Position numbers and translations under genes: made by a program
Shown here: piece by piece, positions 14,553 through 60,192 of the stretch
How the letters are laid out: each line of letters starts with the position of its first letter
Numbering within the stretch: the first letter of the stretch is position 1
The notes under the pieces: generated by a model
What the model saw: the letters and a program-made list of their open reading frames with translations, nothing else
What the model was told of the DNA's origin: nothing
The model's database searches: none
Assembly: GCA_041640655.1 (NCBI GenBank)
Contig: JBEPZV010000001.1
Location: forward strand, 154,845 to 218,844
From: a bacterium
GTDB lineage: Bacteria; Acidobacteriota; Blastocatellia; HR10
Length of the DNA: 64,000 nucleotides
Reading direction: 5' to 3'

Positions 14553-15404
14553 ATGCGTATCGTCGTCTGCCTGACGCAGATTCTCGATCCGGAGATGCCG
14601 CCGAGTGAATTTCGACTGGATCCGCAACGAAAGGCGGCCGCCGAGGGGATCGGACAGCTCGTCGTCAGCATCTTCGATGAGAACGCGCTCGAGGTGGCGC
14701 TGCAGGTGCGCGAGCGCATAGCCGAGCGCGAGGGAGCACCCCACGCGATCTCTCGATCGCGTGAGGACCCCGGCCCGGTGGAGATCGTCGCGCTCACCGT
14801 CGGTCCTCCTTCGGCCGCCGACGTCCTGCGGAAGGCGCTCAGTCTGCGCGCCGATCGCGCCATTTTGATCTCCAGCGAGGGATGGCCTCCGCTGGAAGGC
14901 GCCATCGTCGCCCGCCTTCTGGCCGCCGCCGTGAGACGGCTCCATCCGGTGGACCTCGTGCTCTGCGGGCGCGAGACGGGAGATTGGCATGGGGGACAGG
15001 TCGGCGCCTTCCTGGCCGAAGCGCTCGGATGGGCGAGCGTGAGCTTCGTCTCCCGCATCGAGGTGGAGGGGGAGACCTTCCTCATGCGACGCCAATCGGA
15101 CGAAGGATGGGAGATCGTGCGCGCGAGACGACCCGCCGTGGCGACGATCACCAACGATGAGACGAACGTCCCGCGCTTGCCGAAGGTCAGAGATACGATG
15201 CTGGCCGCCCGCGCGTCGCTCCCCGTGTGGACGATCCCGGAACTGGTCGAAGATCCGAGAGAGCTGTGGCAGGCGAATGCCCTGCAGGTGCGCGAGTTGT
15301 TCATTCCGAGCAGCTCGAAGGCGTGCGAGGTGATCGAGGGGGAGACGGTTCAGGAGAAAGCCGTTCGGCTTCTCCAGGCGCTGCGCCGACGACGGATTCT
15401 CTGA
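14553..15404 (+). CDS. etfB: electron transfer flavoprotein beta subunit, carrying an in-frame 38-nt palindromic-element insertion
   Basis: EtfB family sequence (MRIVVCLTQILDP...). An extra loop GAPHAISRSREDPGP coincides with the palindromic element at 14734..14771. Confidence 0.85.
   Translation: MRIVVCLTQILDPEMPPSEFRLDPQRKAAAEGIGQLVVSIFDENALEVALQVRERIAEREGAPHAISRSREDPGPVEIVALTVGPPSAADVLRKALSLRADRAILISSEGWPPLEGAIVARLLAAAVRRLHPVDLVLCGRETGDWHGGQVGAFLAEALGWASVSFVSRIEVEGETFLMRRQSDEGWEIVRARRPAVATITNDETNVPRLPKVRDTMLAARASLPVWTIPELVEDPRELWQANALQVRELFIPSSSKACEVIEGETVQEKAVRLLQALRRRRIL
14734..14771 (+). repeat. 38-nt palindromic element copy a (GAGCA-CCCCACGCGATC-TCTC-GATCGCGTGAGG-ACCCC), inside etfB
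   Basis: Matches the consensus GGGCA CCCCACGCGATC TCCG GATCGCGTGGGG ACCCC found in four other copies; 12-bp arms. Confidence 0.8.
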
Positions 15405-15424
15405 GCTGAGAGGAGGACGTCCTC

Positions 15425-16420
15425 ATGCGCACCGTGATGGTTCTCCTGCCGACATCCCGCATCGAGCGGGCCGAGCGCGAGGCCATCGGCGCCGCGCGCG
15501 CGTTGTCGCGGGAATGGTCGGCGAACGTGCAGGTGGCCCTCATCGCCCCAACGGCGGAGGGAATCGAAGGCCTCCGAGGGAGGACGGAGGCCTCTGGAGA
15601 TGTGCGCCTGTGGATCGCCGCCCATCCGCAGCTGGCGGCGTATTCGCCCGAGCTGTATGTGAGCGCCAGCGAACAGCTCATCACACGCGCGCGACCGGAC
15701 GTGATTGTCTTCCCCAGTCGGACGATCCCGCTTGAGATCGCGCCGCGTCTCGCATACCGGATCGGGGCGGCGATGGCGACCGATGTCATCGAGCTGCGCG
15801 CCGAGGATGAGACCGTCCGCATCACGAAGCCCGTCTACGGCGGCAAGGCGCACGCGGTGTTGATGGCGCAACGGTTCCCCCTCGTCCTCTGCGTGCGCCC
15901 GCGCGCGTTCGATCCGTTTGAGGGGGAGCTGCGCGACGATGCGGCGATGCGCGTCCAGGTGACGCTCGATCCCTCGTCCGTCCGCACGCAGCTCGTCCGA
16001 CGGATTCAAGAGGACGCCGCGGCGGGAGTGTCGCTCGAAGAGGCGCGCGTCATCGTCAGCGGCGGGCGCGGCCTCGGCGGACCCGAGGGCTTCCGATTGC
16101 TCGAAGAATTGGCGCGGTGGCTCGGCGGCGCCGTCGGCGCTTCGCGCGCGGCGTGCGACGCCGGGTGGGTGCCGGCCAGCTGGCAAATCGGGCAAACGGG
16201 AAAGAAGGTCGCCCCCGATCTCTATATCGCCGTCGGGATCTCCGGAGCCAGCCAGCACATCGTCGGCATCTCCGGGGCCAAGTGCATCGTCGCCATCAAC
16301 ACGGACCCCAAAGCGCCGATCTTCACAGTGGCGGATCTCGGGATCGTCGGCGATTATCGAGCGGTCGTCCCCGCTCTGATCGCGGAGGTCAAACGGATGC
16401 GTGAGGAAGCAGAGGGATGA
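15425..16420 (+). CDS. etfA: electron transfer flavoprotein alpha subunit
   Basis: EtfA FAD-binding C-terminal motifs ([22 protein letters not shown]). Confidence 0.85.
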
Positions 16421-16458
16421 ACGCTTGAACGCGACGAGACCTTCTGGGAGGACGCGAC

Positions 16459-17256
16459 ATGAGTGAGCCGACGGTGCAGCTTGTCGTGGACGATGGCGTG
16501 GCCACGGTGACGCTCAACCGGCCCGAGGCGTTGAACGCTATTGACGCGACGTTGGCGGCCGAGTTGCGCGAGGTCTTTCGAACGTTGGGAGCGCGAGAGG
16601 ATGTTCGGGCCGTGATCCTGACGGGAGCGGGACGGGCGTTCTCGGCGGGTGCGGATTTGAAGTACCTTCACCGGAGATTGGAGGAGGGCGCTTCGGCCGA
16701 ACAGTTGCTGGACGAGTTGCTCGGGCCGTTGAACGATACAATTCGACTCATTCGGGGCATGCCGAAGATCATCATCGCGGCCATTCACGGGGTCGCCAGC
16801 GGTGGCGGCTGTAACCTCGCGCTGGCGTGCGATTATCGGGTGGCGGCTGTGGGGACGCGGTTCAACCAGGCGTTCGTGCGACTCGGGATCGCTCCGGATT
16901 GCGGAGGGACGTTCATTGTGCCGCGCCTGATCGGCTGGACGAAGGCGTTCGAATGGATGGTGAGTGGAGCGTTGATCGAGGCTGAGGAGGCGGCCGCCTG
17001 GGGACTCGTGCATCGCGTCGTCCCCGAGGATCGCGTGCTCGAAGAGGCGCGCGCCTTCGCGCGCTCCGTGTGCGAAGGGCCGACACGAGCGATCGTGACC
17101 ATCAAACACTTGCTCGCGATGAGCCTCGGAGCCTCCCTGGATGAGCAGCTGGAGCGGGAGCGGCAGCTCGTGGGCTTGCTCGCCGGCACCGAGGATTTCC
17201 GCGAAGGCGTGCGCGCCTTCCTCGAGAAGCGCCCCCCGCGCTTCTCCGGGCGATGA
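16459..17256 (+). CDS. enoyl-CoA hydratase/isomerase (crotonase family)
   Basis: Crotonase motifs (LNRPEALNA, GAGRAFSAGADL, GGGCNLALACD). Confidence 0.85.
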   Translation: MSEPTVQLVVDDGVATVTLNRPEALNAIDATLAAELREVFRTLGAREDVRAVILTGAGRAFSAGADLKYLHRRLEEGASAEQLLDELLGPLNDTIRLIRGMPKIIIAAIHGVASGGGCNLALACDYRVAAVGTRFNQAFVRLGIAPDCGGTFIVPRLIGWTKAFEWMVSGALIEAEEAAAWGLVHRVVPEDRVLEEARAFARSVCEGPTRAIVTIKHLLAMSLGASLDEQLERERQLVGLLAGTEDFREGVRAFLEKRPPRFSGR

Positions 17257-17276
17257 CGCGTCGCCCCGATCCTCCC

Positions 17277-17314
17277 GGGGTCCCCACGCGATCCGGAGAT
17301 CGCGTGGGGTGCCC
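17277..17314 (-). repeat. 38-nt palindromic element copy b (intergenic, reverse orientation)
   Basis: GGGGTCCCCACGCGATCCGGAGATCGCGTGGGGTGCCC is the exact reverse complement of copy d; perfect 12-bp arms with a 4-nt spacer. Confidence 0.85.
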
Positions 17315-17335
17315 GAACTCCCCGAACGGAGGACT

Positions 17336-18292
17336 ATGTCGAGCGCATTCGAATTCGTTCCCCCCGGTCTCGATCTCGCCGATGATGACATCCATCCCAT
17401 CGGTCCGGAACCCTGGTGGCGCGAGGCCTGGTACTTCGAATTCTTCGACCCGGCTTCGCGCGTTCAGTTCCAGGTCTATCAAGGCATCTTCCCGAACGCC
17501 GGTCGAGGGGATCTGACCTGCTACGTGTTCGTGGAGGGACGCCTGCGATACGAGCTGATGAAGATGGACTTCGCGATTCCGTCCGACATCGGGCGGGAGC
17601 GCTTGTGCTTCGGCCCCTTGAAATTAGAGATGCTCGAGCCCTTCGTCCGATGGCGCTTGCGCTACGATAGCCCGAGGATGCAGTGCGATCTCTCCTTCCG
17701 CGCGCTCCATCGCGCCTTCAGTTGGGCGGAGACCCGGCTCTGGATGGAAGACGCTCCGGTCGGGCAGCAGAGCCGCCATTTCGATCAGGTGGGATGGTAC
17801 GAGGGATGGCTGCATCTGGATGACGAGCAGCTCTCCATCTCGGCGATCGGGATGCGCGATCGGATGTGGGGGTGGGGAGGGCGCGCTCTCTGGCGCGGGT
17901 ATCTGGTCCTGTGGGCGCCCTTCTCCGAAGCCTTCGTCGTCAATGTGGCGGCCATGAACTTCGCCGACGGTCGACGCCACCTCTGCGGATATCTCCATCG
18001 CGAGGGCGAACGCACCTATCTCGACTCCGCGCGCCTGACCATCACCTGGAGCGAGCAGCGATGGAAGTCGGTCGAACGTGTGCACGCGCAGCTCACCGAT
18101 CGGCGCGGGCGGTCGCTCGCGCTCTCGGCCCGACCGCTCGGCATCATTGATACATCGCATCATTGGCCGCACCGATTCGATCACCTCCTCTTCTCCATCG
18201 GCGAATATGAGTGCCAGGGGATGACCGGCTACGGATGCCTGACGTGGAGCTTCGTCACGGCGGAGGAGAAGATGCGCGCCATCGAGTTCTGA
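17336..18292 (+). CDS. hypothetical protein, possibly CrtC/AttH-like (lipocalin-like hydratase family)
   Basis: ATG 17336 after GGAGG; Trp-rich N-terminal motif PEPWWREAWYFEFFD resembles the EWWY signature of CrtC/AttH family proteins. Weak by-eye assignment. Confidence 0.35.
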   Translation: MSSAFEFVPPGLDLADDDIHPIGPEPWWREAWYFEFFDPASRVQFQVYQGIFPNAGRGDLTCYVFVEGRLRYELMKMDFAIPSDIGRERLCFGPLKLEMLEPFVRWRLRYDSPRMQCDLSFRALHRAFSWAETRLWMEDAPVGQQSRHFDQVGWYEGWLHLDDEQLSISAIGMRDRMWGWGGRALWRGYLVLWAPFSEAFVVNVAAMNFADGRRHLCGYLHREGERTYLDSARLTITWSEQRWKSVERVHAQLTDRRGRSLALSARPLGIIDTSHHWPHRFDHLLFSIGEYECQGMTGYGCLTWSFVTAEEKMRAIEF

Positions 18293-18316
18293 GAGGCGAA
18301 GCTCGGAGACGTGGCC

Positions 18317-19528
18317 ATGAAGTCGACCGACCTCACCGGGATCCTCCCGCGATCTCTCGATCGCGTGGCGTGCCTGAACGCGCTGCTCCATCGGTTCGGG
18401 GAGAGCGTCCGTCACTTCTTCCGCGCCGAGCAACGCTCGCACCTGTTCTCCCCCCTCTTTCATCTCCCCGGGCGATTGATCGCGGGGAGCTATTGCTACT
18501 ACGAGCACCTGGTGCCCTTGTTGCGACAGGTGGCGCGACAGATGCCGCCGGAAGCCCTCGCGCATCGGGTGAAGCGACTCGGGGCGCGACCCAACGAGAT
18601 CAACGCCAATTCTCTGCTGCTCGGGTATCTGAACGGGCGGGAGCAGCGGCGGCTGCTCGGCCATCGCGTGGCAGATGATCCGGAGGAGATCGCCTTCCTC
18701 CTGGACTTCTGGGCGCGCTTCCTCGCCGCCTATCGCGCCGATGGTCGGCTCTTGCCGGAGGAGAGCGGATTCGTTCTGCCGGTGCTCGAAGCGCGAGCGC
18801 TCGAAGTGCTCCTGCCGGAACTCCATCCGGAACCGGAGCACGCACGACGCCAGCGAGGTCCCCATGTGATCGGGAGATCGCGTGGGGTGCCCGAGCGGAT
18901 GCGTCGCGCCCTGGCCACGCTCGAGCTCTTCGCCTTCGTCTTCAACGGCGAGGCGCGCGTCGGCCTCTTTCACCACGGGCCCTATCCCCGACCCGACGGC
19001 ACGTGCGTGCTCGTCAAGGAGCTGGTGGGGTTGCAGGACGATTTCTATTCCTGGGCGGAGGAGTCCGTGCGACTCCCCGTGGCCCATGTGGCCTGCCTCT
19101 TGCTCGTGAAGGACGTCGAAGTGAGAATCGGTTTATTCGGATCGCTCCGGACGGAGCCCCGGGAGTACGCTCAGAACGTCGTGGCCTGTGGCCTCTTCAC
19201 CGCCACGGGGGAAGACGTTCGTCCTCTCACGCTCGAGGAGCTGGAGGAGATCGCCGCGCACGCGGCTGAGGCGCAGATGCGCCTCTATCGCCACTTCCTC
19301 ACATGGGATGATCGGCGTCGCATCGCCTATGGAGCGGAGCTCTACGGGAACCTGCTGCGCGTCTTCGGCGATCAGGCGGGACTCGGGCCGGATTTCCATC
19401 GGGAGATCCGAGAGCGCTTCCGGGAGAGCACGGACCGACATCTACAAGCCATACTCGCTGGCGAGCCTCCGGCCATCCTGCGGCATATCGCGGAGACGGC
19501 GGGAGAGATCTACAGCCCCCTCGCATGA
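18317..19528 (+). CDS. conserved hypothetical protein (paralog P1), carries an in-frame palindromic-element insertion
   Basis: About 400 aa, tandem paralog of 19541..20770 (shared blocks ATLEL.AF, GLF.HGPY, LYGNLL/LYLFAN). Insertion RGPHVIGRSRGVP maps to element copy c. Confidence 0.5.
   Translation: MKSTDLTGILPRSLDRVACLNALLHRFGESVRHFFRAEQRSHLFSPLFHLPGRLIAGSYCYYEHLVPLLRQVARQMPPEALAHRVKRLGARPNEINANSLLLGYLNGREQRRLLGHRVADDPEEIAFLLDFWARFLAAYRADGRLLPEESGFVLPVLEARALEVLLPELHPEPEHARRQRGPHVIGRSRGVPERMRRALATLELFAFVFNGEARVGLFHHGPYPRPDGTCVLVKELVGLQDDFYSWAEESVRLPVAHVACLLLVKDVEVRIGLFGSLRTEPREYAQNVVACGLFTATGEDVRPLTLEELEEIAAHAAEAQMRLYRHFLTWDDRRRIAYGAELYGNLLRVFGDQAGLGPDFHREIRERFRESTDRHLQAILAGEPPAILRHIAETAGEIYSPLA
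18855..18892 (-). repeat. 38-nt palindromic element copy c (inside P1 coding sequence, slightly degenerate)
   Basis: GAGGTCCCCATGTGATCGGGAGATCGCGTGGGGTGCCC; left arm carries 2 substitutions. Confidence 0.8.
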
Positions 19529-19540
19529 AGACCGGGTCGG

Positions 19541-20770
19541 ATGAGGCGCATGACCCTCGAGGAGATCAATCGCCACATCCGGCTGATCGCGGAACAGCTG
19601 AAGGCGTTCATGCGCTCGGAGCAACGCGCGCTCCTGCGATCGGCGCTTTTTGACGTCCCCCGCCGCTCCTCGCTCGGATGGGAATGCCTCTACCGCACGG
19701 CCTATCCGCTGCTGGCGGACCTCACGTCGGTCGTCACGCCTGAGGAGATCGGACGCCGGATGAAGCGCGTGTGCGCGCGCCCGAATTTCCTCACGCTGAG
19801 CATTCTGATCTGCTGCTACCTCGGGGGACGCCAGCAGCGGATCCTCGATCTCGGCGTGCGACCGGGAGAGCCCTTCCCCGAGGATGATCCCGAGCAGATC
19901 GGCTTCGTCCTCGACTTCTGGTGGCGCGTCTGCCGCACCTATCGCGAGGATGGTGCCCTCTTGCCGGAAGAGCGAGGAGGGACGATGCCGATCCTGCCGG
20001 CCGGAACGATCGCTCGACTCCGCGCGCTGCTGGTCGAGACGGATCCGCTCACGGTGAAACGCCTTCGTCGTCTGGCGGCGACGCTGGAGCTGTACGCGTT
20101 CATCCTGCACGGGGAGCAACGCGATGGCCTCTTCGCGCACGGCCCGTACGCGCTGCAGGAGCGGGCGGGCACCCCACGCGATCTCCGGATCGCGTGGGGA
20201 CCCCGGGAGGTGCTCGTCATTCGCGAGTTCACCGACCTGCAGAACAGTTATCTCCCCTGGGCGCAGACGCGCGCGCGGAACCTCTACCCGAATCTGGCGC
20301 TCGCGCTCCAGCTTCGGGACGTGACGGCTCAGTTCGATCTCTTCGGAGGGGTGCGATTCGATCCCCCGGAATATGCTGATCGCGTTCGCGCCGTCGCGTT
20401 GGTGACCGTGGCCGACAATGGGGAGATCCGAGCCGTCCCTTTCGAGGAGATCGAGGAGATCGAACGCCGCGCGGCCGACGCCCAGATGGAGCTGTATCAA
20501 CGCGCGCTCTGCTGGTCGCCGCGCTTCAAGATCGAATACGGCCTCTACCTGTTCGCGAACCACGTGAAGGCGTTCTTCGATCTGGCGGGGGTGGAGGCGG
20601 GCGAGCGCATTCGTCGGGCGTTCGAAGAGGCCGCCGCTCCGTTCCTGCAGCGGTTGCTCGCCGATGCCGAACCACCATTCATCTGGCGGTTCATGGCGAC
20701 GACAGAAGGCGATTTCTTCTATCCGATCTCCGCGCAGATGCCCGAACGTGAGGGAGGAGAGGGGCGATGA
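19541..20770 (+). CDS. conserved hypothetical protein (paralog P2), carries an in-frame palindromic-element insertion
   Basis: Paralog of P1. Insertion GTPRDLRIAWGPRE (copy d) lies at a site where P1 has no insertion. Confidence 0.5.
   Translation: MRRMTLEEINRHIRLIAEQLKAFMRSEQRALLRSALFDVPRRSSLGWECLYRTAYPLLADLTSVVTPEEIGRRMKRVCARPNFLTLSILICCYLGGRQQRILDLGVRPGEPFPEDDPEQIGFVLDFWWRVCRTYREDGALLPEERGGTMPILPAGTIARLRALLVETDPLTVKRLRRLAATLELYAFILHGEQRDGLFAHGPYALQERAGTPRDLRIAWGPREVLVIREFTDLQNSYLPWAQTRARNLYPNLALALQLRDVTAQFDLFGGVRFDPPEYADRVRAVALVTVADNGEIRAVPFEEIEEIERRAADAQMELYQRALCWSPRFKIEYGLYLFANHVKAFFDLAGVEAGERIRRAFEEAAAPFLQRLLADAEPPFIWRFMATTEGDFFYPISAQMPEREGGEGR
20167..20204 (+). repeat. 38-nt palindromic element copy d (inside P2 coding sequence)
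   Basis: GGGCACCCCACGCGATCTCCGGATCGCGTGGGGACCCC; perfect 12-bp inverted arms. Confidence 0.85.
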
Positions 20771-22923: not shown

Positions 22924-22955
22924 GCAGGGGGCTATCCCTTCGGAGGAGGACGACT

Positions 22956-25220: not shown

Positions 25221-25252
25221 CCGCCCGACCTTCGCCGACAAGGAGACCGACG

Positions 25253-27120: not shown

Positions 27121-28371
27121 ATGGCCTTCACCATGAAGGATCTCCACGATTTGATTCGGATCTTGGAGAAGCATCCGGAGTGGCGCACGGAACTGCGGCG
27201 GCTCCTTCTGACCGATCAGCTGCTGGAGCTGCCCGTCATCGTTCGCGAGTTGGCCGAAGCACAGCGACGAACGGAGGAACGCGTGGAGGCGTTGGCCGAG
27301 GCGCAGCGGCGGACGGAAGAACAGGTGCGGGCCTTGACGCAGCAGGTGCAGGCCTTGGCCGAGGCGCAACGGCGGACGGAGGAGCGGGTCAGTCGGGTGG
27401 AGGAAGAGCTGGCCAAGTTGGCCGAAGCGCAACGGCGGACGGAAGAACAGGTGCGGGCCTTGACGCAGCAGGTGCAGGCCTTGGCCGAGGCGCAACAGCG
27501 GACGGAGGAGCGGGTCAGTCGGGTGGAGGAAGAGCTGGCCAAGTTGGCCGAAGCGCAACGGCGGACGGAAGAACAGGTGCGGGCCTTGACGCAGCAGGTG
27601 CAGGCCTTGGCCGAGGCGCAACAGCGGACGGAGGAGCGGGTCAGTCGGGTGGAGGAAGAGCTGGCCAAGTTGGCCGAAGCGCAACGGCGGACGGAAGAAC
27701 AGGTCCGGGCCTTGACCGAGGCGCAGCGACGAACGGAAGAACAGGTGCGAGCCTTGACTGAAGCGCAGCGGCGGACGGAGGAGCAGGTGCAAGCCTTGAC
27801 CGAAGCGCAGCGGCGGATCGAACAGCAAGTCGCCGATCTGGTGGCCGCTCAACAGCGCACCGAGCGCACCTTGCAACGCCTCCTCGAATGGCAACAGGGC
27901 GAAGCGGGACGGCGCGAGGGCGAGCGATACGAGCGGCGCATCGTGGTGCGCGCGCCCAACCTGTTCTTCGGTGGCGAGGGCGGTGCACCCGGGGAGCCGG
28001 ATGTGCGTCGTCAACTCAGCCGGTGGCTTCACCCGTTCTATCGAGAGGGTCGAGCCCCGGATCCCCCCGCCGATCCTCTCCTGGCCGACCTCATTTGGTG
28101 GAAAGGAGAGGAAGTGTTCGTCGTGGAGGTGTCGCAGAAAGTGGACCCTCAGGACATCCACCGCGCCCGTCAACGAGCCGATACCTTGCGCGAAGCGGGC
28201 GTGAACGCCACACCGGCTGTGATCGGCGAGGAGTGGGCGACGCCGGAGTCACAGGCGCTGGCCCAACAGGAATCGGTGGAATGGTTGGTCGGCGGAGGCC
28301 TTTCCCAGGGGTTCCTGCGCTTCCGCCGCCTGTCAGCCGAGACGCTGGAAAATCCCCCACGCGAAGGATGA
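27121..28371 (+). CDS. coiled-coil repeat protein (paralog A) with C-terminal putative PD-(D/E)xK-like domain
   Basis: N-terminal conserved block [22 protein letters not shown], then repeats of AEAQRRTEE(R/Q)V..., C-terminal FVVEVSQK block; ribosome-binding site GGGAGG. Confidence 0.6.
   Translation: MAFTMKDLHDLIRILEKHPEWRTELRRLLLTDQLLELPVIVRELAEAQRRTEERVEALAEAQRRTEEQVRALTQQVQALAEAQRRTEERVSRVEEELAKLAEAQRRTEEQVRALTQQVQALAEAQQRTEERVSRVEEELAKLAEAQRRTEEQVRALTQQVQALAEAQQRTEERVSRVEEELAKLAEAQRRTEEQVRALTEAQRRTEEQVRALTEAQRRTEEQVQALTEAQRRIEQQVADLVAAQQRTERTLQRLLEWQQGEAGRREGERYERRIVVRAPNLFFGGEGGAPGEPDVRRQLSRWLHPFYREGRAPDPPADPLLADLIWWKGEEVFVVEVSQKVDPQDIHRARQRADTLREAGVNATPAVIGEEWATPESQALAQQESVEWLVGGGLSQGFLRFRRLSAETLENPPREG
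27292..27810 (+). repeat. intragenic tandem repeat: 126-nt unit x3 followed by about 42-nt units x3
   Basis: Near-identical nucleotide units gccgaggcgcaacggcggacggaggagcgggtcagtcgggtggaggaagagctggccaagttg... Confidence 0.8.
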
Positions 28372-47685: not shown

Positions 47686-47687
47686 CG

Positions 47688-49386: not shown

Positions 49387-49391
49387 GGAAA

Positions 49392-51460: not shown

Positions 51461-51475
51461 GATTATGAGGTGAAT

Positions 51476-51874
51476 ATGCCGAAAGCGACTGTCACTAAGA
51501 AGCGAACCAGCGCCCGGCTCCCAGTGCGCGACACGTGCGAGCAAGTTTGCTACGATGCGCCGCTTGTGCGCACGCTCAAGCGAGAGATGCTCGCCGACGA
51601 TACTGTGATGGAACTGGTGGCGACCTTCGAGGTTTTGGCCGACCCAACACGCCTCCGAATTATCTACGCGCTCGGCCGGGGCGAATTGTGCGTGTGCGAC
51701 CTGGCGCATGTGCTGGGGATGAGCTTGTCTGCCACGTCGCACCAACTGCGGCGACTGCGCGATCTTCGGCTGGTCAAGTACCGATACGAGGGCCGGATGG
51801 CCTTCTATTCGCTCGATGACGAGTTCATCAAGAAGATGGTGGAAGATGCGGTGCAGCACGTAGAGAGTGATTGA
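51476..51874 (+). CDS. ArsR/SmtB family metal-sensing repressor (CadC-like)
   Basis: LADPTRLRIIYAL helix-turn-helix and CVCDL metal site; GAGGTG ribosome-binding site. Confidence 0.8.
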   Translation: MPKATVTKKRTSARLPVRDTCEQVCYDAPLVRTLKREMLADDTVMELVATFEVLADPTRLRIIYALGRGELCVCDLAHVLGMSLSATSHQLRRLRDLRLVKYRYEGRMAFYSLDDEFIKKMVEDAVQHVESD

Positions 51875-51875
51875 G

Positions 51876-52994: not shown

Positions 52995-52999
52995 AAACG

Positions 53000-53686: not shown

Positions 53687-54189
53687 CGAAGACAAAACTT
53701 GCAGTGCTCACTACCGCCTGCTTAATCTTAGGTGGCATTTGGCTGTCCAGTTATGCTCAACAGAGCGAAGTGCACAAAAAAGCAACGGAAGGACAGTCTC
53801 AAATGCAAATGGGACCGGAGATGATGCAGCAAATGATGAAGGACATGGGCAACAATCCTATGATGGCCCAATGCCAGCACATGATGCGCACCGTCATCTA
53901 TCCCGATAGTGCATCGAGCATCCTTGCCTTGAAGGAACAACTTGACCTTTCCGAAAAGCAGACGAAAGAGCTCATAGCCATTCAGGAAAAGGCCAATGCC
54001 GAGGCAAAGAGAGTCCTTACCGAGGAGCAGGGTAAGAAGTTTGAAGCGCTGACCAAAGACTGGAAGCCACAATCCATGATGCAATGCATGCAAACCATGA
54101 TGTCTCAGATGCAGAAGATGATGGGAGGCCAGATGCCTGCCTGTCCTATGATGCAAATGATGCAAGGAAAGGAGCGACGAACAAAGTAA
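53683..54189 (+). CDS. periplasmic Met-rich LTXXQ-motif protein (Spy/CpxP/ZraP-like)
   Basis: Signal peptide; MxxM-rich N- and C-terminal tracts (MQMGPEMMQQMMKDM, MMQCMQTMMSQMQKMM); central LSEKQ...LTEEQ helices. Confidence 0.6.
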   Translation: MTKTKLAVLTTACLILGGIWLSSYAQQSEVHKKATEGQSQMQMGPEMMQQMMKDMGNNPMMAQCQHMMRTVIYPDSASSILALKEQLDLSEKQTKELIAIQEKANAEAKRVLTEEQGKKFEALTKDWKPQSMMQCMQTMMSQMQKMMGGQMPACPMMQMMQGKERRTK

Positions 54190-54302
54190 CGGGACAAAAG
54201 TTCGGGGCGCTTTTTGCTGGTGCCTTGACAGCTATTCAAGAGCGTTCCTTTGGTTTAAAAGTGTTCCCGAACTTTTGTCCACCTACTAAGGAGCATTGAA
54301 TC

Positions 54303-54728
54303 ATGAAGCGAGTCATCCTCGTGCTGATCATTGTGGCTGTAGCCGCCGTCGTGACCGTGAAGCTGGTAAGCAGAAAGCAAAAGCCTCAACCGCCATCGGC
54401 AGTGGTGACCGCACCATCATCGGCCAGCACCCAAGGCAAGCCAATTCTTTATCTGTTTCACGATCCGTCTGATCAGGATGCCGGTTGTCGGCGCATTTAC
54501 GCCTATCTGGATCAGGCCGAGAGAGAACTGGCTGGGCAAGTGGAAGTGCGGCGGCCGGATGTTGAGCGTGAGAAGAATCTTGTCGAGCAGTTTCAGGTGC
54601 GGGTGCTGCCGACGGTCTTGCTCGTATCGCCAACCGGTGCTGTTGAGCAACGCTTTGAAGGTGAGGACAGTTCAACCGCCGAGCACATCGAGCAGGCGCT
54701 CGAACGATTGAAAGGGATGCCACAGTGA
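54303..54728 (+). CDS. membrane-anchored thioredoxin-fold protein
   Basis: N-terminal TM followed by a thioredoxin-like fold; paired with the CcdA gene by ATGA overlap. Confidence 0.45.
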   Translation: MKRVILVLIIVAVAAVVTVKLVSRKQKPQPPSAVVTAPSSASTQGKPILYLFHDPSDQDAGCRRIYAYLDQAERELAGQVEVRRPDVEREKNLVEQFQVRVLPTVLLVSPTGAVEQRFEGEDSSTAEHIEQALERLKGMPQ

Positions 54729-55384
54729 ATCCACCGAACATTGAAGAGATTTCTTTGACAGCTTTTGTGCTGACCTTTATGGGCGGGATCGTGACCGGCT
54801 TCAATCCCTGCTGCTATACGATGGTCCCAGCACTGGTTGGCTACCTGAGCGGGTACTGTGAGCCATCGGTGAAGCGATGCGCGTGGCTGTCGGGCTGGTT
54901 TGCCATCGGGCTTGCTACGGCCACTGCGATGTTGGGATTAATCGCTGTGCTTGCTGGTGGAATATTCGGCGGCGTGCATCCAGCGGTGCGTTATCTTCTC
55001 GCCGTGATACCGATTGTAATGGGTTTGCACCTGTTGGGGATTATCAATATCAAAGTGCCAGCGGTTCGCCATTGGCGGCCTATCCGCTCTGGTACACTCG
55101 GCGCGTATCTCACCGGCTTGCTATTTTCTCTGGCGATCCTTCCTTGTGCTACTCCTATTTTGGCTTCAATTCTCGCGTATACTGCCAGTCATGGCAGTGT
55201 GCTTTATGGCTCAGCATTGCTCTTCATCTATGGCACAGGAATCGGTGTGCCAATTGTACTTGTCGGTACAAGCCTCGGCATTCTTTCATCACTGCGACTA
55301 CTGGCTTGCTGGTGGTCGGTGGTTCACCGCCTCAGCGGCGTAATCCTCATTGGGCTGGGCTTCTACTTGCTCTGGCAAGCATAA
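54725..55384 (+). CDS. ccdA: cytochrome c biogenesis protein CcdA / DsbD transmembrane-domain family
   Basis: Six TMs, conserved Cys pair (FNPCC...C); 219 aa. Confidence 0.8.
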   Translation: MNPPNIEEISLTAFVLTFMGGIVTGFNPCCYTMVPALVGYLSGYCEPSVKRCAWLSGWFAIGLATATAMLGLIAVLAGGIFGGVHPAVRYLLAVIPIVMGLHLLGIINIKVPAVRHWRPIRSGTLGAYLTGLLFSLAILPCATPILASILAYTASHGSVLYGSALLFIYGTGIGVPIVLVGTSLGILSSLRLLACWWSVVHRLSGVILIGLGFYLLWQA

Positions 55385-55611
55385 TTCGCTATGGACCACA
55401 AAGAAAAAAGCTGGTCGTTCCAGGCAATAGCCACACTCACCACAACGCCAGCGGGCAGACGGTCAAAGACCTTGTCTGGGGGAACCCTTTGAAGAAATGG
55501 CTCGACATGATGCGCCAATTCTGGGCGAGATTTGTCCTGACGGCTCCGATTCTCCACATCCACTGGCCCGATGAGTTGACCATCTCCCAAGTATCGCTCT
55601 AACGTCGTATC

Positions 55612-56688
55612 GTGGGGCAGCTCGCCGCCTATACGCTCTTTCTGTTTAATGGTCGTCTGGCCTTCCAACTGGCGGACGCTGTGGGAACCGGATTTACCAA
55701 CTACATCTCGAACGCCTCGGTGAATGATGGGCAGTGGCATCATGTTGCGGCGACGGTTCAGCGAACGAGCGGGCCCCCCATGCTCACGCTCTACGTGGAT
55801 GGCATGTCAGTTCTCACCAATCCGAATCCGAGAATGGGCAATCTGACGAACACGAATCCATTATGGATCGGACGGCGGCATCCTGTTCCTGGCGCTACGA
55901 CGGACCGGTTCTTCGTCGGAGACATTGACGAAGTGGAACTCTTCAACCGGGCGCTGACTCAGCAAGAGATTCAAGCCATCGTCCAGGCGGGCGCGGCGGG
56001 CAAATGCAAGGGGTGCATCGAAGGCATGAAGTGGAACGATGCCAACGGCAACGGTGTGAAAGATCCCAATGAGTCAGGGCTGTCGGGCTGGACGATTCAG
56101 CTCAGCGGTCCTTCTGGTGTGATTGCCACGACCACCGGCACCGGCGGCACCTATCGCTTCTGCGGATTGCCGCCGGGCACCTACACGGTGGCAGAAGTGT
56201 TAGTGTTGCAGCCTTTCTGGGTGCGCACGTTCCCGCCGCCACCGGGCACGCACACGGTCACGCTCGGCGTCAATCAGACGGTGTCCAACATCAACTTCGG
56301 CAATCGGCGGGTGATCGTTCTGCCTGATTTCGTGGTGAAGAATCTGCGCGTGCTGCCGCCCGTGATTCCGCGGGGAGGGACGGCCATTGTTTCGTTTGAC
56401 ATCGTCAATCAAGGTGAAGGGGAAGCCGGTCCGGCGACCCATCAGGTGCGGCTCTTCATCCGGCGTCCCGGTCTTCCCGACCTTGATGTGTTGCTCGCCA
56501 CGGTGGCGACGGGAACGCTGGCTGCCGGCGGCTCGCAATCGTTCACCGTGGCGATCCGGTTGCCGCAAGAGGTTCCGACCGGCACGGCCCTGATTCGCGT
56601 CCTGGCCGATGCAGGGAGAACGGTCAACGAGTCGAACGAGGAGAACAACGTGGCCGAAGTTCAGATCACCATCACCGGAGGACCGTAG
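55612..56688 (+). CDS. LamG-like / Cna-B / CARDB domain surface protein, N-terminally truncated fragment
   Basis: Begins inside a concanavalin-like domain (no signal peptide or start context); an out-of-frame LamG-like stretch lies upstream at 55400-55600; sits at the GC transition. Confidence 0.45.
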   Translation: MGQLAAYTLFLFNGRLAFQLADAVGTGFTNYISNASVNDGQWHHVAATVQRTSGPPMLTLYVDGMSVLTNPNPRMGNLTNTNPLWIGRRHPVPGATTDRFFVGDIDEVELFNRALTQQEIQAIVQAGAAGKCKGCIEGMKWNDANGNGVKDPNESGLSGWTIQLSGPSGVIATTTGTGGTYRFCGLPPGTYTVAEVLVLQPFWVRTFPPPPGTHTVTLGVNQTVSNINFGNRRVIVLPDFVVKNLRVLPPVIPRGGTAIVSFDIVNQGEGEAGPATHQVRLFIRRPGLPDLDVLLATVATGTLAAGGSQSFTVAIRLPQEVPTGTALIRVLADAGRTVNESNEENNVAEVQITITGGP

Positions 56689-56722
56689 TTGGGAAAATCA
56701 TTCCGTACGGGCGACGGTCTCC

Positions 56723-56750
56723 GGCCGTCCCCCATCGGCGGGGGGGACGG
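56723..56750 (+). terminator. GC-rich stem-loop downstream of the LamG/CARDB fragment
   Basis: GCCGTCCCCC-atcggcgg-GGGGGACGGC; 10-bp stem, no U-tract. Confidence 0.25.
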
Positions 56751-57313
56751 CGAGACCTCCGTACAGCGGCCCGCGCTCTTAACAGGGAAGCGGAATTGTG
56801 GGATCGTTCAAATCCCACCTGCTCTCTCAACGCCTTGCGGGGCGCCCCACGGGGACCCTCTCTGACGACGGAACTCTACGCCTCATTCGCAGCGAAGACT
56901 CTCTCCGCCGCCTCTGTAGCTCGGATTGCGGCGCCGGCATCCGACCGGCTCGGCGCGAATCCTGGGGAAAGGCCAGGCTCATCTCGCCGCCCGTCCGGCT
57001 AAAGGTGAGGGACGTTTTGTCCACATCACCGGGAGCATCAAAGTCGGGAGCGTATCGGCGACGCCGCTGCCTGGCGGTGATTCGAGACGGGCGACCGGCC
57101 GGATCCTCACCGAACCTTCGGATCCAGGAAGGCCAGCCGATTGTCTGCGGCGATCACCGCCAGTCGCCCCGTGGACGAGCGGGTGAGGGAAACGGCCGCC
57201 CCCCCCGTGCTCACCCGATCCCGCTCCTTCCCCTCCAGATCGTAGGTCACGACCGCTCCGTTCACGAGAAAACAGCGTGACGCGCGGATCTCGCATTCGT
57301 TTGAGGCCACGCC

Positions 57314-58156
57314 TCAAAAGTGATAACTCAAGCCGAAGACGCCGTGATGGGAGCGAAGGAGCGCTTCGGCGTGACCAGCGAAGATTGCGCCGCGCTGCCG
57401 CGTGCGCGTGAATTTGTATTCGCTGAGCACGTAGAGGCCGCGCCAGAGGTGAACCTCCCCGCCGACAGCCCACTGCCACGCGAGGCGTCCCCACTGGTAC
57501 TGCTCCTGCTCATGGCCCTCGATGGTGCTCTCCGTATGCGGGATTGTGGGGCCGAGGCCAAATCGCGTGGTCACCATCAGGGGGCTTCGACGGGCATCGG
57601 CGCGTTGACCGAGCGGCGCGCGGGCGACGACGTTCAGGAGCAGGAGGTTCGCTCCATGAGAGATCGCGTAGCGCTGGACGATCTCCGAGAGCGCGAGTTC
57701 TCGCTCCAGTCGCGCGCCGCGATGCAACCCGGCCACGCGCACGCGCTGTTGCGGATCGGCGTAGACTTTCATGTGGATGAACTCGGCTTCAAAGCCGAAG
57801 AACCGGAGGCGTCCGGGAAAGTAGCCTCCCCGAACGCCATAATAAAGCGGCGGATCGAAGGAACGGCCTTCGAAGCGAACCCCCTCGAAATCGAGCTCGG
57901 TCTTCAGCGTCGGTTGCCGGATGCGCAATCTGGACGGGGTCGTGTGCGCGCCTCCGAGATAAAGGGCGATGACCCAGCGGCTGCGCTCCGGGCGAGGGGA
58001 TTGGCTGCCGTCGCGGGCTGGAAACGTCGGTCCGAGTGGGTTCGAGCCCGTTGCTTCATGGGGGGACTGGGTTTGGTGCGTTGCTTGAGCGAATGCGGTG
58101 GGGAAGGTCGGCGCGAGCGCGAGCAAGGCGGTGAGCGCGAGCCGTTCGATCTTCAT
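57314..58156 (-). CDS. outer-membrane beta-barrel protein (signal peptide)
   Basis: ATG 58156 after GGAGGAAG; signal MKIERLALTALLALAPTFPTAFAQA; alternating amphipathic strands; C-terminal aromatic residue (YHF). Confidence 0.5.
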   Translation of the reverse strand: MKIERLALTALLALAPTFPTAFAQATHQTQSPHEATGSNPLGPTFPARDGSQSPRPERSRWVIALYLGGAHTTPSRLRIRQPTLKTELDFEGVRFEGRSFDPPLYYGVRGGYFPGRLRFFGFEAEFIHMKVYADPQQRVRVAGLHRGARLERELALSEIVQRYAISHGANLLLLNVVARAPLGQRADARRSPLMVTTRFGLGPTIPHTESTIEGHEQEQYQWGRLAWQWAVGGEVHLWRGLYVLSEYKFTRTRQRGAIFAGHAEALLRSHHGVFGLSYHF

Positions 58157-58805
58157 GGCGCTTCCTCCGTTCGCCGAGCTCACCCACATTGTGCCACGAG
58201 TAGCGGTGTTTGTGAACTGAGCAGGCGAACCGCTGTCGGTGTGCGCCGGATGCGAATCGGAGACGACGCGAACGGACCGAAGGAGGGACACCCTGTTGTG
58301 AGAACGGCGCAGCCAGAATCCGGGAGCGTCAATGGCGGATACTTCGAGCTTGCCGAACTTCGAGATCCTCCGCGAGCGGCTGGCTCGGGAACTGATCCTC
58401 TGCCTCAGTCTGGACCATTTGACGCTCTGGACTGCCTGAGAGGGGGATCGCGAGCGGTGGAGGGGCCAGCTCGTGGCTGAACTGCGCACCGATGACTTGT
58501 CGTGATGGATGCGGAGCTGGCACGTGTGAAGAAGAGAACCGCAAGCGACATCGGGTGATCAATGGAGGGGGAGCGGAGCCTGGGGAGAGGTGCTCGGTCT
58601 CAGGAAGCCCATTGAGTCCGATAATTCGACGAGGACCGAGCGTCTGGCGAGGGCTCGGTCGTCGTTGTTTTGTTTGTTTGCGGTGTCCGCTTCCACGCCA
58701 TTTCATGTGAAGGAGGCGTGGCTTATCCCGGGCGTGTTTCGGCGCTTGAGGCGTGTGGCCTCGTCGTGTATAGTGTTGGTGATTGGGCGGAGGTCATGTG
58801 GCACT

Positions 58806-60002
58806 ATGGCTTTTGAGGTGGACGATTATCTGGATCTGATTCGACTGCTGCAGGAGCATCCGGAGTGGCGGGCAGAGCTGCGCCGTCTGCTGCTGACGGA
58901 GGAGCTGCTGGCGCTACCGGAGCTGGTCCGTGATCTGGTCCACGCCCAGCGGCAGACGCAAGAACACCTGGCGGCGTTGGCCGAGGCGCAACGGCGGATC
59001 GAACAACAGGTGGAGGCGTTGACGCAACAGGTGCAGGCCTTGGCCGAGGCACAACGGCGGACGGAGGAGCGGGTCAGTCGGGTGGAGGAAGAGCTGGCCA
59101 AGCTGGCCGAAGCGCAACGGCGGACGGAGGAGCGGGTCAGTCGGGTGGAGGAAGAACTGGTCAAGCTGGCCGAGGCACAACGGCGGACGGAGGAGCGGGT
59201 CAGTCGGGTGGAGGAAGAACTGGTCAAGCTGGCCGAGGCACAACGGCGGACGGAGGAGCGGGTCAGTCGGGTGGAGGAAGAGCTGGCCAAGCTGGCCGAG
59301 GCACAACGGCGGACAGAAGAGCGGGTCAGTCGGGTGGAGGAAGAGCTGGCCAAGCTGGCCGAGGCACAACGGCGGACGGAGGAGCGGGTCAGTCGGGTGG
59401 AGGAAGAACTGGTCAAGCTGGCCGAGGCACAACGGCGGACGGAGGAAGAGGTGCGTGCTCTGGCCGAGGCCCAGCGCCGGACCGAGCAGCGTGTTGGCCA
59501 TCTGGAAGAAGCGCTGCAGGTCCTGATCGAGAGCCACAAACGCTTGACGGATGTGGTGGGCGATCTCAGGGGGCGCGTGTTGGAACAGACCTACCGCGAC
59601 CGGGCCGGCGCATACTTCGGTCCGTTGCTGCAGCGGCTCCGGGTCGTGGACCCGTATGCGCTGGAGGAGGTGTTGCGCGTCCATCTCACGGCGGACGAGT
59701 TTTACGATCTGCTGCGCGTAGACCTGCTCGTTTGTGGGCAGCCGCGGTTGCGGCCGGAGATGATGGAGGTCTGGCTGGTGGTGGAGATCTCGGCCGTCGT
59801 GGATCAGGGTGATGTCGAGCGCGCCCAACGGCGGGCCAAACACTTGCGCCGAGCCGGCTATCGGGCGATTCCGATGGTGGCTGGGGAGCGCGTGACGTCG
59901 GGCGCAGAGGACGAGGTCCGCCGGCACCGCGTGGCGGTCTTGCAGGATGGGAGCGTGTCCTTCTGGGAGGAAGCCCTGGAGGCGTGGGCGGGCAGCGCCT
60001 GA
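58806..60002 (+). CDS. coiled-coil repeat protein (paralog B) with C-terminal putative PD-(D/E)xK-like domain
   Basis: Same N-terminal block as paralog A ([22 protein letters not shown]); 21-aa repeats [18 protein letters not shown](A/V)KL; C-terminal VVEISAVVD block. Confidence 0.6.
59040..59417 (+). repeat. intragenic tandem repeat, 63-nt unit x6
   Basis: Nearly identical 63-nt units (ctggccgaggcacaacggcggacggaggagcgggtcagtcgggtggaggaagaactggtcaag). Confidence 0.85.
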
Positions 60003-60154
60003 GGAGCCGATGGTGTGTCGTTGTCCCTTCCTTCTGTGCGAGGAGCCCGTCCCCGGTTCGTGGCAGCCCGCTGCCTGCCCACGAGTGAGGACCGCGCCGT
60101 CCGTGGGTCGGTGGGATTCACCGAGGCCGGAGTCAAGCGGTGCGCTGTGCTGCT

Positions 60155-60192
60155 GGGCACCCCGCGCAATCTCCCGATCACGTGGGAACCCC
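60155..60192 (+). repeat. 38-nt palindromic element copy e (intergenic, degenerate)
   Basis: GGGCACCCCGCGCAATCTCCCGATCACGTGGGAACCCC; about 6 substitutions relative to consensus. Confidence 0.65.

What the first reader, a model, noticed from the sequence alone, without database searches (positions are those of the whole stretch)
14734..60192. A family of 38-nt near-perfect palindromic elements scattered through the window
Five copies of GGGCA-CCCCACGCGATC-TCCG-GATCGCGTGGGG-ACCCC (12-bp arms, 4-nt spacer) occur at 14734, 17277, 18855, 20167 and 60155, in both orientations, intergenic and intragenic. Copies b and d are exact reverse complements of each other, which argues for recent spread rather than ancient remnants. 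All three reading frames of the element are stop-free on both strands. The element should form a stable hairpin in RNA and cruciform-prone DNA. It looks like a miniature REP/RPE-like mobile or recombination-generated element, which is not a standard annotation class for high-GC soil bacteria.
Basis: seen in the sequence. Interest (0 to 1): 0.8.

Follow-up and report, generated by a model that had tools for sequence, protein, structure and literature searches.

The report
Mobile palindromic repeat inserted inside genes
A 40-base hairpin-forming DNA repeat has recently copied itself between and into ordinary genes of a hot-spring acidobacterium, adding about 14 tolerated amino acids each time; it is a new family of an already known kind of small bacterial repeat (REP/RPE-like).

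Summary
The window holds six copies, plus one internally deleted remnant, of the palindrome (C)GGGCA-CCCCACGCGATC-NNNN-GATCGCGTGGGG-AC-CCC(G); none is expected by chance. Four copies lie inside ORFs (ETF-beta and two paralogous genes of unknown function). Two are intergenic.

Comparison with 91-97% identical strains and with orthologues shows clean presence/absence differences. The insertions are exactly 42 nt (14 codons) or 84 nt (dimers). One copy is nested inside another, and copies decay by in-frame internal deletions. The same palindrome occurs in the MAGs "Bacterium HR08" (about 93% identical to the window) and HR10. It also occurs in MAGs labelled Thermoflexus and Pseudomonadota, and in other metagenome contigs with 3-, 4- or 5-nt loops.

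Arm mutations are not compensated, and there is no orientation bias, so nothing indicates a host function for the hairpin.

No transposase was found in the window or in 1.1 Mb of fetched loci. No full-length IS with these ends was found, and there are no viral or plasmid copies.

Verdict: a non-autonomous, recently active REP/RPE-like element that is translated in frame. Its mobiliser is unidentified; a hairpin-recognising HUH/Y1 enzyme is inferred only. This is a new member of a known kind, because intragenic REPs are documented (Di Nocera 2013).

The parts
11899..11921 (-). Internally deleted remnant of the element (CGGGTCCCC-GCAT-GGGGTGTCCG) at the 3' end of ORF 10257-11924, just before its TGA stop
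   Evidence: The outer arms are retained and the inner stem is lost. A 95.5% identical strain (L031) has a further deletion here.
14733..14774 (+). Copy a: 42-nt in-frame insertion (38-mer at 14734-14771, 2 mismatches) in the ETF-beta gene 14553-15404; it encodes GAPHAISRSREDPG (residues 61-74)
   Evidence: There is an exact 42-nt gap in L030, which is 91.5% identical. The 14 aa are absent from P0104 and all other orthologues. L031/P0103 carries a 27-nt in-frame internal deletion. The AF2 model puts the insert in a low-confidence loop between helix 44-59 and strand 77-84.
17277..17314 (-). Copy b: perfect copy in the 79-nt spacer between the enoyl-CoA hydratase gene (stop 17256) and the DUF7065/7064 gene (ATG 17336)
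   Evidence: 0 mismatches. The spacer is 49 nt shorter in L030, which lacks the copy. Gene identities come from Pfam.
18338..18375 (-).
   Evidence: The 13-aa stretch is absent from the paralogue and from orthologues P0002-P0011, and is present in the 96% identical P0001.
18852..18893 (-). Copy c: 42-nt in-frame insertion (38-mer at 18855-18892, 3 mismatches) in unknown-function gene 18311-19528; it encodes RGPHVIGRSRGVPE and is bounded by a 4-nt direct repeat AGCG
   Evidence: There is a clean 42-nt indel against L027, which is 97% identical. The 14 aa are absent from P0001 and all orthologues.
20167..20204 (+). Copy d: perfect copy inside paralogous gene 19541-20770; it encodes GTPRDLRIAWGPR and is flanked by CGGG/CGGG
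   Evidence: There is a 14-aa gap in the paralogue. The orthologous copy in L027 has a 15-nt in-frame internal deletion.
60155..60192 (+). Copy e: degenerate copy (4 mismatches). It is most likely intergenic, lying 153 nt after the stop of 58590-60002 and upstream of 60311-62557; the short ORF 60015-60314 has no family match.

Best explanation
The repeat is a non-autonomous, selfish palindromic element of the REP/RPE type.

Shown here:
- It is a 40-nt hairpin-forming palindrome.
- New copies appear at new sites in closely related strains. In coding DNA they appear as units of 42 nt (40-mer plus 2 nt), or as 84-nt dimers.
- Because 42 is a multiple of three and the sequence has no stop triplets, an insertion in a gene adds 14 Gly/Pro/Arg-rich residues, and the gene stays open.
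- After insertion, copies drift neutrally and are eroded by internal deletions. Inside genes these deletions are in frame.
- Copies tend to land close to, next to, or inside one another.

Inferred, not shown:
- The element is mobilised in trans as a single-stranded DNA hairpin.
- The mobiliser is a structure-recognising enzyme encoded elsewhere in the genome, most plausibly an HUH/Y1 tyrosine transposase of the RAYT/TIRYT type.
- The conserved CA/AC mismatch near the foot of the stem serves as the recognition or orientation feature.
- Host proteins tolerate the insert because surviving copies sit in surface loops or at termini.
For: Presence and absence between near-identical strains:
- Copy c is missing from L027 (97% identical): a 42-nt indel.
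- Copy a is missing from L030: a 42-nt indel.
- L030 has its own 42-nt copy at window position 16400, and L031 has a copy in ETF-alpha; both are absent from the window.
- HR08 (93% identical) has a perfect 42-nt copy at the start of the hydantoinase gene that the window lacks.
- Two strains carry the element 25 nt apart in the same spacer.

Independent insertions in one gene family:
- Paralogues and orthologues carry 14-aa or 28-aa inserts at different positions.
- A perfect copy is nested in the arm of an older one, again as 42 nt.

Breadth:
- HR08 locus L021 has 9 copies in 7 kb.
- Host proteins are unrelated: TPR, BatA/VWA, FG-GAP, peptidase M61, hydantoinase.
- All three frames and both orientations relative to transcription are used.
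- The same core occurs in other MAGs and metagenome contigs of 59-73% GC with 3-5-nt loops.

Neutral decay:
- Stem changes are not compensated: 87.3% of cells pair against 87.5% in shuffles, and covariation is 0.086 against 0.091.
- In-frame internal deletions of 15 and 27 nt occur.

Other support:
- The perfect copy forms a stable ssDNA hairpin, -20.3 kcal/mol, z -6.95.
- The ETF-beta insert maps to a low-confidence loop.
- The lower-GC island at 28-57 kb has no copy.
- Intragenic REPs, REP dimers encoding 20-30 aa, and REP families without a known transposase are documented (PMC3733652).
Against: No mobiliser was found.
- Pfam scans listed no transposase or integrase for the window ORFs. For 22 ORFs scanned only, just the 25 most frequent of 67 families were visible.
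- E. coli RayT (phmmer, E<=10) and an HUH...Y motif search hit nothing in the six-frame ORFs of the window plus about 150 loci, 1.1 Mb in total.

Other points against:
- The element lacks the GTAG or CGTC end tag that defines the described REP superfamilies.
- Junctions are inconsistent. Terminal direct repeats are 4 nt in copy c (filled versus empty site) and in copy d and L013 (read from flanks only), 0 nt in copy a, 1 nt in L006, and 2-4 nt in L065/L039. A pooled duplication test is not significant (p 0.11-0.14). The insertion chemistry is therefore unresolved.
- Absence of copy c from L027 could be precise excision between the AGCG repeats rather than a recent gain.
- The '42 nt' rule rests on coding-region cases, where only multiples of three can survive. 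Intergenic indels were 42, 43 and 49 nt.
- Cross-phylum occurrence relies on MAG labels.
Confidence: 0.75

Rival explanations
1. It is a minimal MITE: two 17-nt terminal inverted repeats of a DDE-type insertion sequence joined by a 3-5-nt spacer. The parent IS's transposase moves it by cut/copy-and-paste and makes a short fixed target-site duplication (2-4 bp).
For: Perfect 4-nt direct repeats bound copy c (AGCG), copy d (CGGG), L013 (CGGG) and L039 (CCGG). The arm length is typical of IS ends. The left flank begins with CG more often than expected (my count).
Against: Other clean filled/empty pairs show 0-2 nt of repeat. The pooled duplication test is not significant. None shared a recurrent downstream sequence of the kind a full-length IS would give; they were chance hits, loop-length variants, or an unrelated tandem repeat. 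No transposase gene was found in the window or in the 1.1 Mb of loci by the RayT/HUH searches; Pfam was run only on window ORFs and nine locus proteins. From general knowledge of DDE transpososomes, two ends 4 bp apart on duplex DNA cannot be synapsed.
Confidence: 0.13
2. The copies are generated by recombination or repair rather than by a dedicated transposase. An abundant palindromic sequence is copied into breaks or stalled forks by template switching or microhomology-mediated synthesis, and is lost again by slippage between short repeats.
For: Microhomology at the junctions varies from 0 to 4 nt. Copies cluster locally, lie adjacent, or are nested. Internal deletions typical of palindrome instability are frequent. 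No mobiliser was found.
Against: The inserted unit has reproducible ends and length: 40-mer plus 2 nt in five coding cases. The asymmetric CA/AC mismatch is conserved in copies from very different genomes. The same core in MAGs of different phyla is easier to explain by a transferable enzyme-element pair.
Confidence: 0.08
3. The palindromes are functional host sites. They could be operators for a dimeric regulator of the fatty-acid/ketone catabolic operon at 12-25 kb, or RNA hairpins that control mRNA stability or translation.
For: Five copies cluster in one co-directional gene cluster. The perfect copy b sits in an intercistronic spacer, where REP-like hairpins are known to affect mRNA decay (general knowledge; PMC3733652). 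The spacer between half-sites is variable, as for dimer-binding sites.
Against: Sites are present or absent between 91-97% identical strains. They occur inside unrelated genes elsewhere. Arm mutations are uncompensated and copies decay. There is no orientation bias relative to transcription. Nothing matches in Rfam.
Confidence: 0.03

Closest known systems
REP elements (repetitive extragenic palindromes), GTAG- and CGTC-tagged superfamilies, and their RAYT transposases (Nunvar 2010; Bertels & Rainey 2011; Di Nocera 2013, PMC3733652)
   Same: Both are 20-40-nt GC-rich imperfect palindromes present in many dispersed copies. Both occur as singletons, dimers and clusters, have variable loops, and form sub-families. 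Some REP families have 12-13-bp stems with a fixed mismatch (GTAG-24). Some REP families are found inside genes, and some (CGTC) have no known transposase.
   Different: The element has no GTAG or CGTC end tag; only a G at +1 and T/G at +2 are conserved. Most copies examined are intragenic rather than extragenic. No RAYT was found nearby. A near-identical core is seen in MAGs of different phyla, whereas REP sequences are usually lineage-specific.
Rickettsia palindromic elements (RPE-1 to RPE-8; Ogata et al. 2000, 2002, from memory; RPE-4/6 reclassified as CGTC REPs in PMC3733652)
   Same: Both are palindromic repeats inserted in frame in many unrelated protein-coding genes. Both add a peptide segment that the protein tolerates.
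   Different: The element has no sequence similarity to RPEs. It is much shorter than RPE-1 (about 100-150 bp). The host is a high-GC Acidobacteriota relative rather than an AT-rich obligate intracellular alphaproteobacterium. Activity is evidently recent, seen as strain-level polymorphism.
REPINs (REP doublets forming hairpins; Bertels & Rainey 2011, PMC3116915)
   Same: 84-nt inverted or tandem dimers occur as single indels. Copies cluster.
   Different: Singletons of 42 nt clearly move on their own here. The dimers pair one good copy with one degenerate copy.
TIR repeats flanking acidobacterial TIRYT tyrosine transposases (Di Nocera 2013)
   Same: Hosts are Acidobacteria. The TIRs share a GGGGWSAS motif, and the arms here begin GGGGTCCC/GGGGACCC (7 of 8 positions). 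Some TIR repeats are self-complementary and moderately repeated.
   Different: No TIRYT gene was seen next to any copy. The motif match is partial. This is a lead, not a test.
Bacterial MITEs (e.g. Correia, Nezha; review PMC10969869)
   Same: Both are non-autonomous, have inverted-repeat ends, and are occasionally inserted in frame.
   Different: At 40 nt the element is far below usual MITE size. No parent IS was found and no constant target duplication is seen.

Membership tests
REP (repetitive extragenic palindrome) | Short (about 20-40 nt) imperfect palindrome able to form a stem-loop | tested here: met
   The palindrome is 40 nt, with 12-bp and 4-bp stems, a 2x2 internal loop and a 3-5-nt loop. 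ssDNA folding gives dG -20.3 kcal/mol, z -6.95.
REP (repetitive extragenic palindrome) | Many dispersed copies per genome with a common consensus | tested here: inconclusive
   There are 7 copies in this 64-kb window, 9 in one 7-kb HR08 locus, and 12 strict matches (11 loci) in the HR08 MAG. The whole-genome copy number could not be counted.
REP (repetitive extragenic palindrome) | Conserved unpaired GTAG or CGTC tetranucleotide at one end (Di Nocera 2013) | tested here: not met
   In the flank composition of 30 copies, only +1 G (25/30) and +2 T/G are conserved. GTAG is present in 2 copies and CGTC in 2.
REP (repetitive extragenic palindrome) | Predominantly extragenic location | tested here: not met
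   In my count, roughly 70% of copies in the loci examined lie inside ORFs. Several were confirmed as inserts by comparison with homologues.
REP (repetitive extragenic palindrome) | Cognate RAYT (Y1/HUH) gene flanked by the repeats | not testable with these tools
   None was found in the window or in 1.1 Mb of loci.
RPE (Rickettsia palindromic elements) | Palindromic repeat inserted in frame in protein-coding genes and translated as part of the protein | tested here: met
   There are 42- or 84-nt indels in ETF-beta, the paralogue pair, hydantoinase A and others. ORFs remain open, and decay deletions of 15 and 27 nt are in frame. Translation itself is inferred.
RPE (Rickettsia palindromic elements) | Sequence relationship to RPE-1..8 consensus; Rickettsiales host | not tested
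   No alignment to RPE consensus sequences was made. RPE-4/6 are described as CGTC-tagged with 8-9-bp AT-starting stems, which this element does not have. The nearest named relatives of the host are an Acidobacteriota (Blastocatellia) MAG and 'Bacterium HR08'.
MITE (miniature inverted-repeat transposable element) | Terminal inverted repeats matching those of a parent IS | tested here: not met
   A scan for arms without a partner gave 120 loci with no recurrent IS-like continuation.
MITE (miniature inverted-repeat transposable element) | Target-site duplication of constant length | tested here: inconclusive
   Direct repeats of 0, 1, 2 and 4 nt were seen in seven cases (five filled/empty pairs and two copies read from their flanks). 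The permutation test gave p 0.11-0.14.
CRISPR array | Regularly spaced direct repeats separated by unique spacers of similar length | tested here: not met
   Copies are irregularly spaced, in both orientations, and inside genes.
Curated RNA families (Rfam 15) | Match to a covariance model | tested here: not met
   There were no matches in the window at gathering thresholds, nor in five copy-rich loci at E<=0.1.
TIRYT-associated TIR repeats (Acidobacteria) | GGGGWSAS motif in repeats that flank a tyrosine transposase gene | tested here: inconclusive
   The arms read GGGGTCCC/GGGGACCC, a 7/8 match. No flanked Y1 gene was observed.

The most novel reading that the evidence does not exclude
The element may be a horizontally spreading, coding-compatible hairpin transposon. 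On this reading its unit length (42 nt = 14 codons) and stop-free, loop-forming peptide in every frame are adaptations that let it colonise genes. It would be moved by an as yet unrecognised mobiliser, not a classical RAYT, that is shared among several phyla (Acidobacteriota, Chloroflexota, Pseudomonadota). If so, it would be the first tractable, currently active system for working out how tag-less or CGTC-type REPs, which have no known transposase, actually move.
Probability: 0.15. Interest if true: 0.7.

Novelty: new member of a known kind. Interest (0 to 1): 0.4.

Why it matters
Small palindromic repeats are common in bacteria, but how most of them spread is unresolved, particularly for families with no associated transposase. 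This family is unusually informative for three reasons.

- It is still active. Filled and empty sites differ between strains that are 91-97% identical.
- It inserts into genes as a 14-codon unit.
- The same core appears in MAGs of different phyla.

Practical consequences follow for annotation. These insertions create lineage-specific 14- or 28-residue loops in otherwise conserved enzymes. They shift predicted start codons, as at 18338. They can also mislead orthology calls, alignments and structure prediction in MAGs.

In kind, however, the phenomenon is already known: REPs inside genes, and RPEs.

Tried and rejected
1. Parent IS. A metagenome scan for one arm not followed by its partner gave only chance hits, 3- and 5-nt-loop variants, and an unrelated 81-nt tandem repeat family.
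2. RAYT/Y1 mobiliser. E. coli RayT by phmmer and an HUH...Y regex against all six-frame ORFs of the window plus loci found nothing. Pfam on the window ORFs listed no transposase.
3. Phage or plasmid vehicle. There were 0 matches in viral contigs and none in PLSDB plasmids.
4. Structured RNA. Rfam gave nothing, and stem covariation was no better than shuffles.
5. Fixed target duplication. Testing every flank register gave no significant diagonal.
6. Literature. The core sequence appears in no open-access paper in a relevant context. Nothing was found for the HR08/HR10 bins. REP surveys that include Acidobacteria do not describe it.
7. Census of intragenic copies through the protein database.
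8. Orientation bias relative to replication or transcription. There is none (3 + versus 4 - in the window; about 12 same versus 13 opposite to the gene). This neither supports nor excludes a lagging-strand ssDNA mechanism, because the element is nearly symmetric.
9. Source organism name. Cluster look-up gave no names.


Full report
**Observation**

The suggested pattern, with up to 3 mismatches, finds copies at 14739, 17282, 18343, 18860 and 20172. None is found in 100 dinucleotide-preserving shuffles.

Scoring the whole 38-mer GGGCACCCCACGCGATC-NNNN-GATCGCGTGGGGACCCC on both strands gives six copies:
- 14734 (+, 2 mismatches)
- 17277 (-, 0)
- 18855 (-, 3)
- 20167 (+, 0)
- 60155 (+, 4)

Copies 17277 and 20167 are exact reverse complements. 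A seventh, internally deleted remnant (CGGGTCCCC-GCAT-GGGGTGTCCG) lies at 11899-11921.

Aligning oriented copies from the window and related loci shows that the palindrome is really 40 nt. It has an outer stem CGGG/CCCG, a conserved 2x2 mismatch (CA opposite AC) that gives the element a polarity, a 12-bp stem, and a loop that is mostly TTCG, TCCG, TCGA or TCTC. The perfect copy folds as single-stranded DNA at -20.3 kcal/mol (z = -6.95), whereas degenerate copies fold no better than shuffles.

Being stop-free in six frames is not special: 28% of all 38-mers in the high-GC part of the window share the property. The copies are clustered, with six of seven in 8.3 kb (p about 0.001). None lies in the lower-GC metal-resistance island at 28-57 kb.

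**Context in the window**

The genes here run on the + strand:
- thiolase-like genes
- ETF-beta (14553-15404) and ETF-alpha
- enoyl-CoA hydratase
- a DUF7065/7064 protein
- two paralogous proteins without Pfam match (18311-19528 and 19541-20770)
- hydantoinase/oxoprolinase A and B

Copy 14734 is inside ETF-beta. Copy 17277 lies in the 79-nt spacer after the hydratase gene. Copies 18338 and 18855 are inside the first paralogue, and 20167 is inside the second. Copy 60155 lies between two genes.

**The intragenic copies are insertions**

- The two paralogues (42% identical) each have a gap of about 13-14 residues where the other carries its copy.
- Among 101 homologues of the first paralogue, P0001 (96% identical) lacks exactly the 14 residues RGPHVIGRSRGVPE. 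All more distant orthologues lack both inserts. P0007 and P0008 carry element-derived peptides (DPRIAWGVPE, RDPEIAWGTP) at two other positions.
- ETF-beta orthologues are 270 aa against 283 aa here. P0104 (93% identical) lacks GAPHAISRSREDPG, and P0103 (97%) keeps only part of it.

**DNA-level comparisons**

- L027 (97% identical) has a clean 42-nt gap at copy 18855, bounded in the window by a 4-nt direct repeat AGCG. It also has a 15-nt in-frame internal deletion in its copy of 20167.
- L030 (91.5% identical) has a clean 42-nt gap at copy 14734 and a 49-nt shorter spacer at copy 17277. It also has its own degenerate 42-nt copy at the end of ETF-alpha, which the window lacks.
- L031 (95.5% identical) has a 27-nt in-frame deletion in copy 14734 and a copy in ETF-alpha that the window lacks.
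- Bacterium HR08 is 93% identical to the window at the hydantoinase locus. It carries a perfect 42-nt copy at the start of that gene that the window lacks.
- The P0007 and P0008 genes (87% identical) each have an 84-nt insertion, a dimer of one good and one degenerate copy, at different sites.
- In HR08 locus L009, a perfect copy is nested inside the right arm of an older copy, again as 42 nt.
- In one intergenic spacer, two strains carry the element 25 nt apart.

**Distribution**

An exact scan of one genome per species found the full element, with variable loops, as follows:
- 12 times in HR08 (11 loci)
- 3 times in HR10
- once in a Thermoflexus MAG
- three times in a Pseudomonadota MAG (SAR270)
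- as a partial form in a Bacillota MAG

Hits in Streptomyces and others lack the flanks and are treated as chance or something else. In SAR270 the palindrome sits in the centre of a repeat of about 200 nt that has its own inverted ends.

HR08 locus L021 has nine copies in 7 kb. Host proteins are unrelated: TPR, BatA/VWA, FG-GAP, peptidase M61, luciferase-like and hydantoinase. All three frames and both orientations are used, about 12 co-oriented and 13 opposite. The frame giving ..TRSEDR.. is the rarest (3 of 25, my count).

The metagenome scan shows the same arms with 3-nt and 5-nt loops in further contigs of 59-73% GC. No copies were found in viral contigs or plasmids.

The nearest named relative is a Blastocatellia MAG, so the host is an Acidobacteriota relative. 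That the HR bins come from a geothermal site is from my memory only.

**Is the hairpin selected?**

On 36 distinct copies, the 16 stem pairs are paired in 87.3% of cells, against 87.5% after shuffling partners. Double-sided changes are no more frequent than in shuffles. Copies therefore decay neutrally from a palindromic master. Nothing indicates that individual copies are maintained for structure. Rfam has no match. An AlphaFold model of ETF-beta places the 14 inserted residues (61-74) in a low-confidence loop between helix 44-59 and strand 77-84. That is consistent with tolerance at a surface loop.

**Mechanism**

What is shown: the unit that appears in coding DNA is 42 nt in five clean cases and 84 nt in two. 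It reads as the 40-mer plus two variable nucleotides at the ACCCCG side.

What is not resolved is the chemistry of insertion.
- Junction direct repeats are 4 nt (copy 18855 and L039 by filled/empty comparison; copy 20167 and L013 from their flanks), 0 nt (copy 14734), 1 nt (L006) or at most 2 nt (L065).
- A permutation test for a 2- or 4-nt duplication over 30 copies is not significant (p 0.11-0.14).
- The flanks themselves show palindromic composition: -1 C, +1 G, -5/-6 C, +5/+6 G.
- No full-length IS with these ends turned up among 120 loci with an unpartnered arm.
- No transposase or integrase is listed for the window ORFs.
- No RayT-like or HUH/Y1-like ORF was found in 1.1 Mb of fetched DNA.

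I favour trans-mobilisation as a single-stranded hairpin by an HUH/Y1 enzyme. My reasons are:
- The element is a single hairpin with a conserved asymmetric mismatch near its foot.
- Two ends 4 bp apart cannot be synapsed by a DDE transposase on duplex DNA (general knowledge).
- Y1 transposases flanked by repeats carrying a GGGGWSAS motif form a defined group in Acidobacteria (PMC3733652). The arms here start GGGGTCCC/GGGGACCC.

That step is inference. I give it about one chance in three on its own.

**Comparison with the known**

Di Nocera et al. 2013 (PMC3733652) describe REPs of 20-40 bp in two tagged superfamilies (GTAG and CGTC). Their account includes stems up to 12-13 bp with a fixed mismatch, REP dimers, REPs inside genes in several species (including Rickettsia RPE-4/6) encoding 20-30 residues as dimers, and CGTC REPs without any dedicated transposase.

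The present element works like these. It lacks either tag, is mostly intragenic in the loci examined, and shares no described consensus. The core sequence is absent from the searchable literature.

I therefore file it as a new member of a known kind, not as a member of the GTAG or CGTC families.

**Verdict**

Novelty is moderate. The most interesting open points are the unidentified mobiliser, the apparent 14-codon unit, and the occurrence of the same core in MAGs of different phyla.

Noticed in passing
window 28000-57000: A lower-GC block (0.575 against 0.653) carries metal-resistance genes: two ArsR regulators, an ArsP-type permease, multicopper oxidases, a CusA/AcrB-HlyD-OEP efflux system and P-type ATPases. 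It contains no copy of the palindrome, which suggests a recently acquired island.
   Followed up: partly
window 27121-28371 and 58590-60002: Two paralogous coiled-coil proteins (53% identical, E 3e-59) bracket the low-GC island. Both carry tandem [21 protein letters not shown]-type repeats and a shared C-terminal domain. GC skew is very strong at 58-60 kb.
   Followed up: partly
window 18311-19528 and 19541-20770: This is a tandem paralogue pair of a conserved family (101 homologues at E<=1e-10) with no Pfam domain. In the loci seen, it lies upstream of hydantoinase/acetone-carboxylase-like A and B subunit genes. The pair may be uncharacterised accessory subunits.
   Followed up: no
L036, L044, L050, L080, L106, L108, L130, L141 (metagenome contigs): An unrelated repeat family forms tandem arrays with an 81-nt period and contains several hairpins. 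It shares the 17-mer GGGCTCCCCACGCGATC with the arm of the element studied here.
   Followed up: no
L017:2400-2900, L018, L023 (Pseudomonadota MAG SAR270): The 38-nt palindrome sits in the centre of an intergenic repeat of about 200 nt that has its own inverted ends (GCCGATTTTGGCCG ... CGGCCAAAATCGGC). This is either a composite or a nested element.
   Followed up: partly
L087, L096, L112, L136 (metagenome contigs; L087/L096/L112 from Ga0070739): 3-nt-loop variants of the palindrome are nested between outer arms CCCCGCGCG ... CGCGCGGGG. It looks as if one palindromic repeat had inserted into the loop of another.
   Followed up: no
L057, L071, L084: Two or more adjacent copies lie immediately upstream of a sequence that looks like the 5' half of a tRNA gene (GCGGGGTGGAGCAGCCCGGTAGCTCGTCAGGCTCATAACC...). 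No tRNA scan was run.
   Followed up: no
window 18311-18375: The degenerate copy at 18338 overlaps the region where orthologues have their start codon. The ORF now begins about 18 codons further upstream, and an in-frame GTG at 18365 lies inside the element. The insertion has probably shifted or extended the N-terminus.
   Followed up: partly
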